Source: a virus (Duplodnaviria; Heunggongvirae; Uroviricota; Caudoviricetes). From it: a stretch of DNA of 15,043 nt. Position 1 is the first letter of the stretch, and every line of letters begins with the position of its first letter. Under the pieces are notes generated by a model. The model did not search any database. It saw nothing but the letters and a program-made list of their open reading frames with translations, and was not told the origin of the DNA. This document shows positions 1 to 13,825 of this stretch, piece after piece. The translations under genes were made by a program, and so were the position numbers. Where the stretch lies: the IMG/VR virus record IMGVR_UViG_2541047845_000008, one strand, 5' to 3'.

Positions 1-165
1 ATGGCAAAGCCGATCATCACGCTCAATGGCCTAAAAATCGTCATTATGTTGGGAATGCTGGTCATTATTCTCTGCGGTATCCGTTTTGCCGCCGAGATCA
101 TCGTGCCGTTTATTCTCGCATTATTTATTGCTGTTATATATAACTTATTTCACTTAACACATTGA
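1..165 (+). pseudogene. tqsA: Truncated 5' fragment of an AI-2E family transporter gene (TqsA/YdgG-like), 54 codons, interrupted by the element
   Basis: Frame-1 ORF from ATG at 1 to TGA at 163-165 (below the ORF-track size cutoff). Translation [46 protein letters not shown] is a hydrophobic N-terminal membrane segment that I recall as the start of E. coli TqsA. The reading frame then runs into YNLFHLTH-stop in AT-rich sequence from about nt 136-141. Identification is from memory, not a search. Confidence 0.5.
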
Positions 166-564
166 TTTAATTAAATAATTTGCACCACAAAAAGTGCCAA
201 AAATCGCAAAATGACTACACCAGTAACTACACCGTTCGGTGCACTGTATGAAACAACGTGGAACAAATAGACACAAGAAATATACAGGCAGATCATCTTT
301 CCAGGGGGAAGCGCACCAATTCATGAGGGGCGTTGCTGTCGATATGGGGATCTCCACCTACCTGGATTTTTTTCCGGTTAAACGTTAATCAGGCTGGTGG
401 GTTTTACCTGTTCTGTAGGAGTGGTCATTATGACCATCCCTTATATCGTCCGAATGCCGGACGAAGGCACACATCAACCGTAACGAAAATCGTTATGGTT
501 GCCTTGATGGTCTGCGTGGTCATTATGACCATTCAGCCAATGACCTTAATCAGAATTTTTCGCT

Positions 565-588
565 AAAAAATGACGTTGGTCACGTCAT
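565..588 (-). terminator. Putative rho-independent terminator ending the long leftward operon
   Basis: Palindrome TGACG-TTGGTCA-CGTCA at about 571-587, flanked on the plus strand by an A6 run (565-570) that reads as a U-tract on the minus strand. It lies about 70 nt downstream of the last operon gene (stop at 659). Stem is short, so confidence is modest. Confidence 0.35.
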
Positions 589-658
589 CCGGAAAGCACA
601 AAATCACGTCAATTTTTAATGGATGGTTAAACCGTCTTTATCTCGATGTCCGTACGTA

Positions 659-940
659 TTACGTACGCAGTCGTTCCGGCTTCTTCCAGTGGTACGTTAT
701 TTTCTCCTTCTCCCGATACATCTCCACGCGGCGACGGTAGGCCAGCAACTCAAGAACTCTGGTTCGTATGTTGCGCATATCCACGCCATTAAGTTCTATA
801 CCATCACGGCGCATCACCTCAGCAACAACACGCGCATAGTTTTCGGCTGTCACGCTGTCCGGCTGCGTGGCCTGTTCGTCAGCCTGCTGGCTGATTCCGG
901 CAACGCGGCGGATTAATCCCGTTATTTCGGCTTCTGTCAT
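659..940 (-). CDS. Hypothetical protein (93 aa), last gene of the packaging operon
   Basis: ATG at 940 preceded by a GAGGT Shine-Dalgarno; starts 14 nt after the TerL stop. No family recognised. Confidence 0.55.
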   Translation of the reverse strand: MTEAEITGLIRRVAGISQQADEQATQPDSVTAENYARVVAEVMRRDGIELNGVDMRNIRTRVLELLAYRRRVEMYREKEKITYHWKKPERLRT

Positions 941-8521: not shown

Positions 8522-8775
8522 GATTCCACCTCTCCGGTTTTAACGTTGATGGTTGTTACCTGTTCCGCTTCGGCAATCTCCCGTTCTGTCAGCGTGGCAA
8601 AGTTTGCCGCCGCCGTGGTCATGAATGCGCTTATCAGGTCGGGATGTGCTTTCGCGTATCCTTCCCCCGTGTTGCGGTCGATGATTTTTATCGCCACTCT
8701 CAGCCAGTGCTCTGTAAGGTCAATGGCGCGGTTATGCTGCTTCTTCTGATTATTAAGTTTTCCTGATGTGCGCAT
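8518..8775 (-). CDS. Hypothetical protein (85 aa)
   Basis: ATG at 8775; stop overlaps the ssb start. Sits between the origin iterons and ssb. No family recognised. Confidence 0.5.
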   Translation of the reverse strand: MRTSGKLNNQKKQHNRAIDLTEHWLRVAIKIIDRNTGEGYAKAHPDLISAFMTTAAANFATLTEREIAEAEQVTTINVKTGEVES

Positions 8776-8823
8776 TTTTATTTTTACCCCCTCGTTTAAA
8801 AAGTTTTGAGTTGTGCCTCCCCT

Positions 8824-9050
8824 TGTCTACCTTATCTACCTTACTGGCTCTCATGCCAGTAATGGCGCGGCTTTCAGCGGGGTAGAGTGCTTTTATCCAC
8901 TATCTACCCCGTATCTACCTCCCTGTCTGATTCAGGTAAAATCAGGTAGAGAGGGTAGATAGTAGGTAGACAGTGAAAAAAGGCTGTCTACCTAAGTTAA
9001 TATACTGAATTAAATGTATTTTTCTTTACTCAGGTAGACAGGGTAGACAG
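8824..9050. repeat. Iteron array and AT-rich segment: putative replication origin
   Basis: Eleven copies of an octamer with core TCTACC / GGTAGA in a non-coding stretch just 3' of the primase gene. Forward copies (TGTCTACC or TATCTACC) at about 8824, 8833, 8901, 8912, 8985; inverted copies (GGTAGA-CA/TA/GA/GT) at about 8881, 8945, 8954, 8965, 9033, 9043. An AT-rich spacer (about 8994-9030) is flanked by inverted iterons. Confidence 0.7.
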
Positions 9051-9063
9051 CCATTGCAAAAAA

Positions 9064-10818
9064 TTATAAAAACGCGTCGCAATCGTCTGTTGTTATTGCG
9101 TTAGTCTGCGTTACTCCCTTAACTTTCCGCGTAATATATTCATGTCCGTAAACTTTCGCGGCTGGCTTCATAGCCTTGCCAAAGTCATTTACGTTTAGCG
9201 GTTTGCTCCTGCCTGCGTATGCCATAAACGCCAGATAGACGCGGTAAAGGCTGTTCCTGGTCGTGTACTTCACTGAATCGCCACCGCCCCCCATCATCAG
9301 GCCGCGCGCTTCCTCCAGAAAATTCAGGAACTGGCAAAACTCAATAACCGGATCCGTCTGTTGCTTTATTGCCAGTGCTTCATCACCGTCACGCTGTTCC
9401 AGTAGTAAAGCCCGTGCCTTCTCAGGGTCGGTAAAGTTCGCCAGCAATCGGCGGATAATGACAGGGATTTCAGCCGCAATCTTTTCCGGTAGCTCCCTGT
9501 CTTTTTCGGCCTCACTGACGATATTGTCGAAACGGAAAATTACGCGACGACGTGACACACCTCCGGCCCGTTCGGTGAATATCATCGGATTGTTATTGGT
9601 TGCCAGCACCACCGCCCTGATTACCGCCGTAAAACGCTTTTCATATTTCGGGTTAATTTCCACGGGGTCGCCGCCCGTGATTTTCTTGATGCCCGTTCCT
9701 TCGCCTGTATATTTCGGCTGGTCAGCCAGGACGATAAGACGACTCCCGACAACCTGCGCACGTCCACCAGCATCATCAAGCGATGTCATTTCAGCGCTTA
9801 CCGTGTTCTGTTTCCCTGCCAGAAGGCTGGCTATGTGCGTGAATGTACTTTTACCGCTCCCGCCATCTCCGGTGGCCTCAATAAACATCTGCCAGTCGTA
9901 CCGGTTCGCCATAATCATGTACAGCGCGGCACATATACGCATCATCTTGCGCGGGTCTTTTCCGGCTGCGTGCTCAAGCCATTTATGAAAGTTTGGCGCG
10001 TTATCGCGGATGTTCTCCCCTGGTGCTGGTGGCGTGTACTCAATGCCGTTGTGCGTGGTGATCCAGTTCTCCGGCGTGTGCGGGGAAAATTCCCCCGTTT
10101 TCAGGTCAAGCGCACCATTGGCGAACGGCAGCAAATCGCCGGACGGCTCGCCCATTGGTTCGGCAATAACTTTTAACGCTTCCACGGCGTTATTGATTAC
10201 GCGCTTGCTGAAAGTGGCCCTGTGCTCTGAATAGATCGCCACCATTTCGCGGCTAAGTTCCATTGTGCTGACCGGACACCATACCCCGCCGCGCCATACG
10301 TGAACGATTTCACTTTCAGGATGTACGCAAACGCCATCAAAGCGATCGGCAAGCAGCTGCGCGCGCTCACTGTCCGCCATCTGCGAAAGTTGCGCCTTTT
10401 GCTTTACCGGAAGCTCAATGACCAGACCATCAGAAAGATTCTGGCGCTCACGGGCCAGATATTCGCGCCAGTTCTCCACCTTCTGACCGTGCATACCCTC
10501 AGGATAAAAATTTGCATCCTGTACGCCTGCCGCCGCCAGCTTCTGGCCAATCGCCTTTATCATTACTGGCGCAAGATATCCGGCCCTGAATATGCGCACG
10601 GATTTTCTGCCTTCCGGCACAATTTGCAGCTTATCCAGTTCTGATAACTGCTGCTCCCCAAGCCACACAGGAGGCTCATTATCTCCGGCCATACGCGCAT
10701 CATGTTCCTGCCATTGTTTCGCGTGTGCCCAGGCATCACTACCCGCAAAAATAATGACTTCTGTTCCTTTGTGTTTTATGCCGCGTGACTGCTGTTTTAC
10801 GTTCGGTGCCAGTTTCAT
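9064..10818 (-). CDS. DNA primase/replicase, P4 alpha-like family
   Basis: 584 aa with Walker A GDGGSGKST and surrounding NTPase motifs; architecture resembles satellite primase-helicases. Its ATG overlaps the stop of the upstream small gene (ATGA). Confidence 0.85.
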   Translation of the reverse strand: MKLAPNVKQQSRGIKHKGTEVIIFAGSDAWAHAKQWQEHDARMAGDNEPPVWLGEQQLSELDKLQIVPEGRKSVRIFRAGYLAPVMIKAIGQKLAAAGVQDANFYPEGMHGQKVENWREYLARERQNLSDGLVIELPVKQKAQLSQMADSERAQLLADRFDGVCVHPESEIVHVWRGGVWCPVSTMELSREMVAIYSEHRATFSKRVINNAVEALKVIAEPMGEPSGDLLPFANGALDLKTGEFSPHTPENWITTHNGIEYTPPAPGENIRDNAPNFHKWLEHAAGKDPRKMMRICAALYMIMANRYDWQMFIEATGDGGSGKSTFTHIASLLAGKQNTVSAEMTSLDDAGGRAQVVGSRLIVLADQPKYTGEGTGIKKITGGDPVEINPKYEKRFTAVIRAVVLATNNNPMIFTERAGGVSRRRVIFRFDNIVSEAEKDRELPEKIAAEIPVIIRRLLANFTDPEKARALLLEQRDGDEALAIKQQTDPVIEFCQFLNFLEEARGLMMGGGGDSVKYTTRNSLYRVYLAFMAYAGRSKPLNVNDFGKAMKPAAKVYGHEYITRKVKGVTQTNAITTDDCDAFL

Positions 10819-13451: not shown

Positions 13452-13825
13452 TATTGCCCCCTTTCGTTTCTTAAAGAGTTATTTCGTGTTCTATTGCGTT
13501 GGGATGTGTCTGATTGTGTCAGGATGATTCAGAGTTGGCAAATGTTGAGGCCGTATGGTTTACAGAAAGAGGAATAATCAGGATAAAATCATTTAATTTC
13601 ATGTTAATACAAAGGCATAAAATATTGTTTCATGCCTTTTTTCTCGCTATTTAAAGAGTGATTCGCTAGTGTATAAAAAACCAGCAACACATTAAAAATC
13701 AGCTACTTATAAATCCGTACACTTTTTCGCCTCTTGTTCGTAGTTGTTCCGCATTGTTGCTCATTGTTGCACGTTGTATCTGTTCGCATATCCAGTATGC
13801 GCATACTGAAAAAACACGAAAAAAA

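What the first reader, a model, noticed from the sequence alone, without database searches (positions are those of the whole stretch)
417..588. Duplicated 15-bp perfect palindrome and short ORFs in the terminal non-coding region
TGGTCAT-T-ATGACCA occurs twice (about 422-436 and 517-531) inside an identical 17-bp direct repeat (GTGGTCATTATGACCAT), 95 bp apart. The first copy contains the ATG of a 17-codon ORF (430-483) with a strong AGGAG Shine-Dalgarno at 417-421. The second lies inside a 23-codon strongly hydrophobic ORF (495-566, MVALMVCVVIMTIQPMTLIRIFR) that resembles type I toxin-like peptides in size and composition. The TGGTC/GACCA half-sites also resemble GntR-family operator half-sites. 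This could be a regulated small-peptide module, protein-binding sites near the att end, or a small RNA locus.
Basis: seen in the sequence. Interest (0 to 1): 0.45.

Follow-up and report, generated by a model that had tools for sequence, protein, structure and literature searches.

The report
Duplicated hairpin repeat in satellite tail
The duplicated palindrome is real, but it is one copy-number variant of a short non-coding hairpin repeat in the hypervariable tail of E. coli phage satellites (PICIs), not a small toxin gene; what the repeat does remains untested.

Summary
GTGGTCATTATGACCAT occurs at 421-437 and 516-532, and both short ORFs exist. The window is a capsid-forming phage satellite (cf-PICI) inserted in tqsA. 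The finding lies in its 520-bp non-coding tail, between the last late gene (ORF93, 659-940, minus strand) and the attachment site.

The second copy belongs to a 25-nt unit, CTGCG-TGGTCAT-T-ATGACCA-TTCAG ("P unit").
- It is found in 52 of 57 distinct satellite tails, always in one orientation.
- Its neighbourhood (window 475-536) matches in 912 of 5426 complete E. coli genomes.
- Its arms vary on both sides at once (TAATCAT/ATGATTA, TGGTGAT/ATCACCA).

The two-copy layout is rare: 10 genomes. A sister lineage is the same tail minus exactly one 95-bp repeat interval, so the copy number changes by recombination between the repeats.

The peptide reading fails. ORF starts, stops and lengths vary (13-86 aa), one variant carries a stop codon, substitutions are mostly non-synonymous, the 23-aa ORF has no Shine-Dalgarno, and no toxin family matches. 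I found no GntR regulator, promoter, Rfam family or lambda-type cos.

Best reading: a cis-acting hairpin or palindrome module in a recombination-prone, palindrome-dense tail. Its function is unproven.

Found in passing: a conserved Chi site 21 nt away, and 14 Chi sites in the 15-kb window.

The parts
1..137 (+). 5' fragment of host gene tqsA, interrupted by the satellite
   Evidence: Homologous loci annotate a truncated 'pheromone autoinducer 2 transporter' here. The ORF 1-165 runs into element DNA.
137..156 (.). Approximate att junction, the end of the satellite
   Evidence: Similarity to the same tail next to phoQ or clpS starts at about 156. The tqsA-site loci stay alike through this point.
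214..233 (+). Two direct ACTACACC repeats 12 nt apart. Probable integrase arm-type sites (inferred).
   Evidence: The only exact copies in the window. Invariant across tails at three integration sites.
248..278 (+). AACAA-repeat block. Probable AlpA (excisionase/regulator) binding sites (inferred).
   Evidence: About 27 of 32 positions align with the int-alpA intergenic stretch 13732-13764 on the minus strand. ORF 13263-13451 matches the PHROG 'excisionase and transcriptional regulator'.
393..400 (+). Chi octamer GCTGGTGG inside the invariant block AATCAGGCTGGTGGG
   Evidence: Kept on the + strand in 54 of 60 homologous tails, including lineages with different flanks. It is the only Chi between the + oriented cosN and att in three classical PICIs.
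417..441 (+). Hairpin H1: the first palindrome copy (422-436) with flanking pairs. It contains AGGAG and ATG 430.
   Evidence: Folds at -11.8 kcal/mol on either strand. Most other tails carry a different hairpin at this position, GGTG-TTATGAT-T-ATCGTAA-TACC; a third lineage has no clear hairpin there. Full-length matches to 405-566, which includes this copy, occur in only 10 of 5426 genomes.
430..483 (+). 17-codon ORF MTIPYIVRMPDEGTHQP. Judged not to be a gene.
   Evidence: Found only in the window-type lineage. The single-copy lineage reads MTIQTMTLIRTFR from the same SD and ATG.
446..464 (+). Hairpin H2, TCGTCCG-AATGC-CGGACGA
   Evidence: Perfect inverted repeat. Other lineages have unrelated hairpins here, such as CCCCCAATGGGG and CCACCAATGGTGG.
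475..501 (+). Hairpin H3, CAACCGTAACGA-AAA-TCGTTATGGTTG, with a G.T pair on the + strand
   Evidence: -26.3 kcal/mol together with H2 on +, -23.2 on -. Conserved with the P unit across 912 genomes.
512..536 (+). P unit CTGCG-TGGTCAT-T-ATGACCA-TTCAG, holding the second palindrome copy. This is the conserved member of the pair.
   Evidence: 61 P-like units, all in + orientation, in 52 of 57 distinct tails. Both-sided arm changes are counted.
495..566 (+). 23-codon hydrophobic ORF. Judged not to be a gene.
   Evidence: variable boundaries, one nonsense variant, no family match. No SD in the sequence.
565..590 (-). Intrinsic-terminator-like hairpin (588 to 570) followed by a U run, on the late-operon strand
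   Evidence: Fold of 556-600 on the minus strand gives -13.7 kcal/mol, z -3.3. The consensus scan missed it, I think because G.T extension consumed the T run.
651..667 (.). 17-nt perfect palindrome CGTACGTATTACGTACG spanning the ORF93 stop codon
659..940 (-). ORF93, the last gene of the late operon. Function unknown. It travels together with the tail.
   Evidence: phrog_1561, unknown function. No Pfam or NCBIfam match. Homologues are almost all E. coli or Shigella.

Best explanation
What it is (shown). The two palindromes are copies of a non-coding hairpin/palindrome repeat. I call it the P unit: consensus CTGCG-TNNTNAT-N-ATNANNA-TTCAG. It sits in the non-coding tail of a family of E. coli phage satellites, both classical PICIs and capsid-forming cf-PICIs. 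The tail lies between the last late gene (ORF93) and the attachment site. It is a mosaic of short hairpin modules that differs between strains in content and length: 225-761 bp from the Chi site to ORF93.

The copy at 512-536, together with hairpin H3, is the conserved member. The copy at 422-436 occupies a position where most other lineages carry a different hairpin.

How the duplication behaves (inferred). The 17-nt identity makes a direct repeat, and recombination across it adds or removes the 95-bp interval. A sister lineage is exactly the one-copy product.

How it works (inferred, not shown). The unit acts in cis as a structure, either a stem-loop in single-stranded RNA or DNA, or a symmetric duplex site. 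It does not act through a peptide. My preferred role is this. With H1-H4 it forms a hairpin cluster between the late-operon terminator (565-590, minus strand) and the Chi/attachment arm. That cluster would stop or buffer transcription running between the host gene (tqsA or phoQ reads into the tail on the + strand) and the satellite's late genes, and would protect RNA 3' ends. This is the way REP/BIME-type extragenic palindromes work.
For: Context. The minus strand carries capsid, protease, portal, connectors, HNH, TerS, TerL and then ORF93. The same tail sits next to phoQ, clpS or tqsA, and is joined to either cf-PICI or classical PICI packaging genes.

Conservation and orientation. There are 61 P-like units in 52 of 57 distinct tails, and none is inverted. 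Window 475-536 matches in 912 of 5426 complete E. coli genomes, against 10 for the two-copy layout.

Structure kept while sequence changes. On 12 distinct units, 88.6% of cells pair and 5 of 11 pairs change on both sides. There are 12 such cells against 4.0 +/- 1.5 in shuffles (0 of 500 reach 12) and at most 3 in slid controls. The G.T pair flanking the stem is present in all 12.

Alternative hairpins at the same places. H1 and H2 are occupied by unrelated hairpin sequences in other lineages.

Palindrome density. The tail has about 20 times the density of the rest of the window, and 0 of 1000 shuffles match it. The fold z-score is -4.4 on + and -4.1 on -.

Recombination. The L071-type tail equals the window minus one repeat interval, with 6 mismatches in 125 nt. 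Other junctions fall at GTGGTCATT.

Not coding..

Restricted to these elements. There is no match in 50,697 phage records and only 6 PICI-like hits in plasmids.
Against: - No transcript data exist for the region, so RNA-level action is unproven.
- The palindromes lie beyond the predicted late-operon terminator on the minus strand, and no promoter is predicted on the + strand.
- A symmetric protein-binding site would show the same both-sided arm changes, so one search does not separate hairpin from operator.
- Arms separated by a single base favour duplex recognition over a stable stem-loop.
- There are only about three arm alleles, so covariation rests on few independent events.
- Across all hairpin candidates, G.T (52) and A.C (54) mismatches are balanced, so there is no overall strand signal.
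- At the H1 position one lineage (L005-type, GTAATGATGATCC) has no clear hairpin.
- P units carry no U run, so they are not classical terminators.
- At the clpS site no host gene reads into the tail.
- Constant orientation could simply reflect common descent.
Confidence: 0.4

Rival explanations
1. Operator-type site. The palindrome is bound as duplex DNA by a dimeric protein from the satellite, the helper phage or the host. The extra half-sites nearby (ATGGTC 507-512, ATGACC 540-545) would make it a multi-site array.
For: The palindrome is perfect, with 7-nt arms and a 1-nt centre. T1, T4, A6 and T7 of each arm are invariant while other positions change symmetrically. In allele 2 a third, direct copy of the arm changes in step (TAATCAT CTGCG TAATCAT A ATGATTA), which a simple hairpin does not explain. 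The heptamer TGGTCAT is over-represented in the window: 8 copies against 1.9 expected.
Against: No further copy of the palindrome lies near any promoter of the element. No GntR-type or other matching regulator was identified. The site lies between transcription units that run towards each other, with no predicted promoter nearby to control.
Confidence: 0.25
2. Neutral or selfish repeat. The hairpin units are leftovers of repeated recombination between satellites, spread by short-homology events, and have no function.
For: Tail length and content vary widely, with 40 variants among about 60 loci. Blocks from different lineages are stacked, some carrying a second Chi. One element is truncated so that the array abuts phoQ (L077). 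Decayed P copies exist (TGGTCATTCTGCCCG). No function has been detected.
Against: A P unit is kept in 52 of 57 tails and never inverted. Arm changes are compensated more often than chance. Most copies of allele 1 share the identical 25-nt core.
Confidence: 0.2
3. Small RNA gene or cis-antisense RNA on the + strand, covering H1-H4 and running towards ORF93.
For: The cluster of four hairpins is strongly structured. G.T pairs in H1 of other lineages, in H3 and flanking every P unit are tolerated only on the + strand. A possible closing stem, GUUCUG/CAGAAU, changes to GUUUUG/CAGAAC in the one-copy lineage (my reading).
Against: No Rfam match at E up to 1. No promoter-like site is predicted upstream of the hairpins in the window or in Sakai Sp7. 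No + strand terminator is evident. None of the 63 Hfq-bound sRNA candidates in Sakai maps to Sp7 (PMC4104026 Table S2). There is no overall strand bias.
Confidence: 0.08
4. Type I toxin-like or leader peptide module. The 23-aa hydrophobic ORF, or the SD-linked 17-aa ORF, would be translated and regulated by the hairpins.
For: The frame through the P unit is hydrophobic in both alleles (ALMVCVVIMTIQ and LIICVIIMIIQ) and stays open for up to 86 codons in some tails. AGGAG and ATG are sequestered in H1, as in some toxin mRNAs. Repeat-associated tiny toxins exist, such as Ibs/Sib in the QUAD repeats (from my own knowledge).
Against: Start, stop and length are not conserved. There is a nonsense variant, and about 5 non-synonymous to 1 synonymous changes (my reading). 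The 23-aa ORF has no SD. The 17-aa ORF is confined to the lineage found in 10 genomes. There is no match to any Pfam or NCBIfam toxin family. No antisense promoter or terminator pair was identified.
Confidence: 0.05

Closest known systems
REP/BIME extragenic palindromic repeats of enterobacteria
   Same: Short imperfect palindromes repeated in non-coding DNA after the last gene of an operon and between genes that face each other. They cluster with IHF consensus sites in sister tails (as in RIP/RIB-type BIMEs). They show copy-number change by recombination, and they would act as hairpins that buffer transcription and protect RNA 3' ends.
   Different: The sequence is unrelated. These units are confined to satellite tails, typically one place per carrying genome, rather than hundreds of dispersed copies. 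All units point the same way, whereas BIMEs alternate orientation. No RAYT transposase link was looked for.
Operator palindromes of dimeric regulators, including GntR-family TGGT..ACCA sites
   Same: A perfect two-fold symmetric 15-mer with TGGT/ACCA ends, with extra half-sites nearby.
   Different: No cognate regulator was found in the element. The site is not at a promoter. The spacing between TGGTC and GACCA is 5 nt, which from memory is longer than FadR- or HutC-type sites.
Repeat-associated type I toxin-antitoxin loci (Ibs/Sib in QUAD repeats, Ldr/Rdl in LDR repeats)
   Same: A repeated intergenic module with hairpins and a tiny hydrophobic reading frame.
   Different: The ORF is not conserved, the 23-aa ORF has no translation signals, no antisense RNA gene was identified, and no family matches.
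Cis sites of lambda-type cos satellites (cosQ-cosN-cosB of EcCICFT073; PMC6739421, PMC6092414)
   Same: Non-coding cis elements near the packaging genes of the same satellite family.
   Different: cosN (GGGCGGCGACCT) lies on the other side of ORF93 in classical PICIs and is absent from this tail.

Membership tests
Type I toxin-antitoxin | Small hydrophobic ORF conserved among homologous loci | tested here: not met
   Peptides of 13-86 aa with different starts and stops, and one nonsense variant. About 5 non-synonymous to 1 synonymous changes (my reading).
Type I toxin-antitoxin | Match to a described toxin family (Ibs, Ldr, Hok, TisB, ShoB and others) | tested here: not met
   No Pfam or NCBIfam toxin family matches at E up to 10.
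Type I toxin-antitoxin | Antisense or overlapping small RNA with its own promoter and terminator | tested here: inconclusive
   No promoter-like site near the ORFs. The only clear terminator (565-590, minus strand) ends transcription before it reaches the ORF. No expression data.
Type I toxin-antitoxin | Toxicity of the peptide when expressed | not testable with these tools
   Needs inducible expression.
GntR-family operator | GntR-family regulator encoded nearby | tested here: not met
   The 20 ORFs scanned against Pfam have no GntR domain. The PHROG scan adds only AlpA-type and 'transcriptional repressor' hits.
GntR-family operator | Site overlaps or adjoins a regulated promoter | tested here: not met
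   The site lies beyond the end of the late operon, between transcription units that face each other. No promoter-like site within 120 nt.
REP/BIME-like extragenic palindromes | Repeated imperfect palindromes in non-coding DNA at operon ends | tested here: met
REP/BIME-like extragenic palindromes | Many copies dispersed around the chromosome, in both orientations | tested here: not met
   1290 places in 912 genomes, median 1 per genome, none reported under annotated genes and absent from most genomes. 61 of 61 units share one orientation.
Rfam small RNA families | Match to a curated covariance model | tested here: not met
   No match in 1-1000 at E up to 1.
Lambda-type cos site | cosN GGGCGGCGACCT | tested here: not met
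   No match in the tail with up to 2 mismatches. In classical PICIs cosN lies beyond ORF93.
Capsid-forming PICI (context of the finding) | int, alpA, primase/replicase plus own capsid, protease, portal, connectors, HNH, TerS and TerL, with no tail or lysis genes | tested here: met
   The gene order matches 10.1101/2022.09.08.507074. Sakai Sp7 is a homologous element.

The most novel reading that the evidence does not exclude
The P unit would be a strand-specific cis signal read as a stem-loop in single-stranded DNA or RNA, working with the adjacent conserved Chi site. It could be a priming or end-processing signal, or a protection signal for satellite concatemers and incoming DNA. It could also be a transfer-origin-like site. 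The tail (Chi, hairpin units and ORF93) would then be a functional module shared by classical and capsid-forming PICIs, which nobody has described.
Probability: 0.1. Interest if true: 0.6.

Novelty: new member of a known kind. Interest (0 to 1): 0.3.

Why it matters
PICI and cf-PICI satellites move virulence and defence genes and sit in a large share of E. coli genomes. Published work on them deals with genes and cos sites. I found no description of this tail in the papers I searched.

The results show that the two satellite families share their right-hand end as well: ORF93, a mosaic hairpin tail and a conserved Chi site. The tail changes by module gain and loss. That gives a defined piece of DNA to delete or swap when asking how satellites insulate themselves from host transcription, survive RecBCD or recombine with each other.

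For the finding itself, the practical result is negative. There is no good reason to chase a toxin peptide here.

Tried and rejected
- **Lambda-type cos or cosB.** cosN is absent from the tail. In classical PICIs it lies on the far side of ORF93.
- **Replication origin or iterons.** The origin-like region at 8770-9070 has (G/A)TCTACC iterons. Shared 11-mers between tail and the rest of the window are few and involve mainly the Chi context.
- **IHF sites.** There are none in the window's tail, although they are abundant in sister tails.
- **Known RNA families.** None.
- **Similarity to phages or plasmids.** None in phages. Six PICI-like hits among plasmid records.
- **Strand assignment from wobble pairs.** 52 G.T against 54 A.C over all hairpin candidates, so no bias. 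Only selected hairpins lean to the + strand.
- **Alignment of H1-H4 across lineages.** Too few independent lineages. One lineage lacks a clear H1 hairpin.
- **Link to ORF93.** Identical ORF93 proteins occur with different arm alleles.
- **Wider taxonomic search.** The pattern scan of 185,579 species genomes found only Shigella and one metagenome-assembled genome. The 120 best ORF93 homologues are all at least 88% identical and E. coli-like, so no distant relatives were available.
- **Resemblances to Fur, Xer/dif/cer, LexA, Fis and F-type nic sites.** These were considered from memory only and did not hold up by eye. They are not tests.
- **Transcript evidence.** The only accessible dataset (Hfq CRAC, PMC4104026) lists nothing in Sp7. 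The supplements of PMC7547250 are not held.

Full report
**Observation.** The sequence is as described. GTGGTCATTATGACCAT occurs at 421-437 and 516-532, 95 nt apart and identical. The 15-nt palindrome TGGTCATTATGACCA has no third copy in the window even with 3 mismatches. Expected matches are 0.35, and 1 of 200 shuffles reached the observed count. AGGAG (417-421), ATG 430 (17 codons to 483) and ATG 495 (23 codons, MVALMVCVVIMTIQPMTLIRIFR, stop 564-566) are all present. One such palindrome per 15 kb is about what chance gives (my arithmetic). The repetition and the local density are not chance. There are five perfect inverted repeats in 137-670, against 0.2 expected, and 0 of 1000 shuffles reach five. 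That is roughly 20 times the density of the rest of the window.

**Context.** The window starts at the start codon of the host gene tqsA and ends at the start codon of an integrase. Between them, all on the minus strand, lie the genes of a capsid-forming phage satellite:
- integrase, an AlpA-type excisionase/regulator, a D5-type primase-helicase, SSB and a PerC-family protein;
- then capsid, prohead protease, portal, head completion protein, connector, HNH, TerS and TerL.

This is the gene order published for cf-PICIs such as EcCIEDL933 (10.1101/2022.09.08.507074). Sakai 'prophage Sp7' is a homologous element. After TerL comes a 93-aa gene of unknown function (ORF93, 659-940; phrog_1561). After that comes about 520 bp without genes, up to the att junction at about 137-156. 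The finding lies in this tail.

**The tail in other strains.** The ORF93-plus-tail query matches in 1454 of 5426 complete E. coli genomes. The tail sits at three integration sites (tqsA, just after phoQ, upstream of clpS). It is joined either to cf-PICI genes or to classical PICI genes such as head decoration protein and Rpp/'TerS'. So it is a module shared by both satellite families. Published comparisons mention the shared left-hand region (PMC10085698). I found no mention of the right-hand tail in the papers I searched.

Alignment of nine tails, and then of about 60 more from IMG/VR, shows two parts:
- **From att to about 400, well conserved.** It holds two ACTACACC direct repeats (214-233). 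It holds an AACAA-repeat block (248-278) that resembles the int-alpA intergenic region at 13732-13764 on the other strand. It holds a GATC-centred palindrome, a T run, and the invariant block AATCAGGCTGGTGGG.
- **From there to ORF93, a mosaic.** There are 40 distinct versions, 225-761 bp long, built from short hairpin modules that are gained, lost, duplicated and swapped.

**What the two copies are.** The second copy is the core of a 25-nt unit, CTGCG-TGGTCAT-T-ATGACCA-TTCAG (512-536). P-like units occur 61 times in 52 of 57 distinct tails and are never inverted. Together with the preceding hairpin H3 (475-501), this stretch matches in 912 of 5426 genomes.

The arms come in several versions in which both sides change together:
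- TAATCAT/ATGATTA, about as common as the window's version;
- TGGTGAT/ATCACCA;
- TGGTG-ATTTC-CACCA.

Counting pairs on 12 distinct units gives 88.6% paired cells and 5 of 11 pairs with a change on both sides. There are 12 such cells against 4.0 +/- 1.5 in shuffles (0 of 500 reach 12) and at most 3 when the partner is slid. The G.T pair just outside the palindrome is present in all 12.

The first copy (422-436) is different. The full two-copy stretch 405-566 is found in only 10 genomes, IAI39 among them. At the same position most other tails carry another hairpin, GGTG-TTATGAT-T-ATCGTAA-TACC, which pairs through two G.T wobbles on the + strand. A third lineage has GTAATGATGATCC, with no clear hairpin. 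The next hairpin, H2 (446-464), is likewise replaced elsewhere by unrelated stems such as CCCCCAATGGGG, CCCCAGTGGGG and CCACCAATGGTGG.

**Origin of the duplication.** A sister lineage (L071, L075, L076, L079) has exactly the window's tail with one 95-bp repeat interval missing, with 6 mismatches in the first 125 nt. Other tails have junctions at the same GTGGTCATT core (L030). The two 17-nt copies therefore behave as a short-homology recombination substrate. Two copies and one copy are interconvertible states. I cannot tell which came first.

**Coding potential.** The frame that gives the 23-aa peptide is open in many tails, but it begins and ends at different places. The resulting peptides are 13, 17, 23, 26, 37, 45, 56 or 86 aa. 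One variant has TGC changed to TGA inside it. By my reading of the variants, the substitutions within the 23 codons are about five non-synonymous to one synonymous, which is what neutral DNA gives. The 23-aa ORF has no Shine-Dalgarno. The well-placed AGGAG serves a 17-aa ORF that exists only in the rare lineage, and in the one-copy lineage it reads a different 13-aa peptide. None of the peptides matches a Pfam or NCBIfam family at E up to 10. The hydrophobic character follows from the T-rich second codon positions of the palindrome. I rate a peptide function at about 5%.

**Other readings tested.**
- No GntR-family protein was found among the ORFs scanned, and the site is not at a promoter.
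- No Rfam family matches.
- The consensus scan finds no promoter-like site within 120 nt of the palindromes, and none at all in the 850-bp tail of Sakai Sp7.
- None of the 63 Hfq-bound sRNA candidates of Sakai lies in Sp7 (PMC4104026 Table S2). Those cells were not induced, so this is weak negative evidence.
- The tail is not a lambda-type cos site. cosN is absent here, and in classical PICIs it lies beyond ORF93 (PMC6739421, PMC6092414).
- It is not the replication origin, whose (G/A)TCTACC iterons are at 8770-9070.
- It has no counterpart in 50,697 phage records.

**Strand and level of action.** On the minus strand a good terminator-like hairpin with a U run lies at 565-590 (-13.7 kcal/mol). 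Late-operon transcripts should therefore mostly end before the palindromes. On the + strand the host gene reads into the tail: tqsA here, phoQ at the commonest site. Some hairpins are better on the + strand: H3, the L004-type H1, and the invariant G.T next to every P unit. Over all hairpin candidates, though, G.T and A.C mismatches are equal at 52 and 54. Both strands fold about equally well. The data do not settle RNA versus DNA, or which strand.

**Best explanation and its limits.** I take the palindromes to be copies of a non-coding, orientation-fixed hairpin/palindrome repeat of the satellite tail, duplicated or reduced by recombination. It acts in cis as a structure. The role I think most likely is a hairpin cluster that buffers transcription between host and satellite and protects RNA ends, as REP/BIME elements do. 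The identity part is well supported. The role is inference (overall confidence 0.4). A duplex protein-binding site explains the symmetric arm changes equally well, and explains the third, direct arm copy better (0.25). Neutral recombination debris remains possible (0.2).

**Seen in passing.**
- The invariant block 21 nt left of the first palindrome contains the E. coli Chi octamer GCTGGTGG (393-400, + strand). It is retained in 54 of 60 tails, including lineages where only the octamer is shared.
- In three classical PICIs it is the only Chi between the + oriented cosN and att, 630-740 bp from cosN. By the textbook rule for RecBCD, that orientation would stop the enzyme when it enters at the free cos end. 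This step is inference.
- The whole window has 14 Chi octamers against 0.64 expected (0 of 200 shuffles). That is several-fold above the E. coli average as I recall it.
- Chi-rich lambdoid phages that lack RecBCD inhibitors are known (PMC8791490). I found no such statement for PICIs.
- Sister tails carry 48 perfect IHF consensus sites, all in one orientation, against 0.85 expected. The window has none.

**Verdict.** The finding is real and non-random, but its headline interpretation does not hold. It is a lineage-specific copy-number state of a conserved non-coding repeat whose function is unknown. Interest is modest for the finding itself. The tail module (Chi plus hairpin units plus ORF93) deserves an experiment.

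Noticed in passing
window 393-400 (+), within 387-401: The invariant block AATCAGGCTGGTGGG contains the E. coli Chi octamer. Chi on this strand is kept in 54 of 60 homologous tails, even where the flanks differ. In three classical PICIs it is the only Chi between the + oriented cosN and att, 630-740 bp from cosN, in the orientation that should act on RecBCD entering at the free cos end (the orientation logic is inference).
   Followed up: partly
whole window: Chi at 393, 6044, 8151, 10025, 10884, 12228 (+) and 1319, 4545, 5549, 5677, 8485, 9764, 13003, 14164 (-): There are 14 Chi octamers in 15 kb against 0.64 expected, and 0 of 200 shuffles reach 14. That is several-fold above the E. coli genome average as I recall it. 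This fits a satellite that relies on Chi rather than on a RecBCD inhibitor, as described for some lambdoid phages (PMC8791490). I found no report of this for PICIs. Three of the sites share the 14-mer ATCAGGCTGGTGGG.
   Followed up: partly
window 248-278 (+) and 13732-13764 (-): An AACAA-repeat block in the tail aligns at about 27 of 32 positions with the int-alpA intergenic region on the opposite strand. These are probably binding sites for the AlpA-type excisionase/regulator at both its promoter and the attachment arm. Next to it lie two ACTACACC direct repeats (214-233), probably integrase arm sites.
   Followed up: partly
sister tails, e.g. L003:1473-2340, L060:1777-2540 (minus), L091:24324-25172: Tails of related satellites carry repeated units ending in a perfect IHF consensus WATCAANNNNTTR (TATCAACCAGTTA, AATCAACGGGTTA). 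There are 48 sites in 17.9 kb of distinct tails against 0.85 expected, all in one orientation. One of them overlaps the ORF93 stop codon. The window's own tail has none.
   Followed up: partly
window 565-590 (-): A terminator-like hairpin with a U run sits at the end of the late operon (-13.7 kcal/mol). The consensus scan missed it. A second ACGTCA copy at 605-610, followed by ATTTTT, could give an alternative pairing on the + strand.
   Followed up: partly
window 651-667: The perfect 17-nt palindrome CGTACGTATTACGTACG spans the stop codon of ORF93. In most other tails the ORF93 end is instead part of an IHF-consensus unit.
   Followed up: no
window 659-940 (-): ORF93 (phrog_1561, no known domain) always accompanies the tail and is shared by classical PICIs and cf-PICIs. 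The 120 best homologues listed are at least 88% identical and, where a source names them, from E. coli or Shigella. Its function is unknown.
   Followed up: partly
window 8770-9070: The likely replication origin lies downstream of the primase-helicase gene. It has more than 10 copies of (G/A)TCTACC in both orientations around a central inverted repeat. This explains the weak palindromic Rfam hits at 8888-8985 on both strands.
   Followed up: no
L077 (IMG/VR 2872693482_000001): This element is truncated. phoQ is followed directly by the middle of a hairpin array, with the att arm and Chi block deleted. It is an example of tail decay.
   Followed up: no
plasmid record NZ_CP148328.1 (10,790 bp): A small 'plasmid' record matches part of a satellite tail. 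It may be an excised circular PICI that was assembled as a plasmid.
   Followed up: no
PMC4104026 Table S1 (Sakai phoQ, ECs1601): phoQ ranks among the most Hfq-crosslinked mRNAs in Sakai, where the satellite tail begins 8 bp after the phoQ stop codon. Whether the signal lies in a 3' extension running into the tail is unknown.
   Followed up: no
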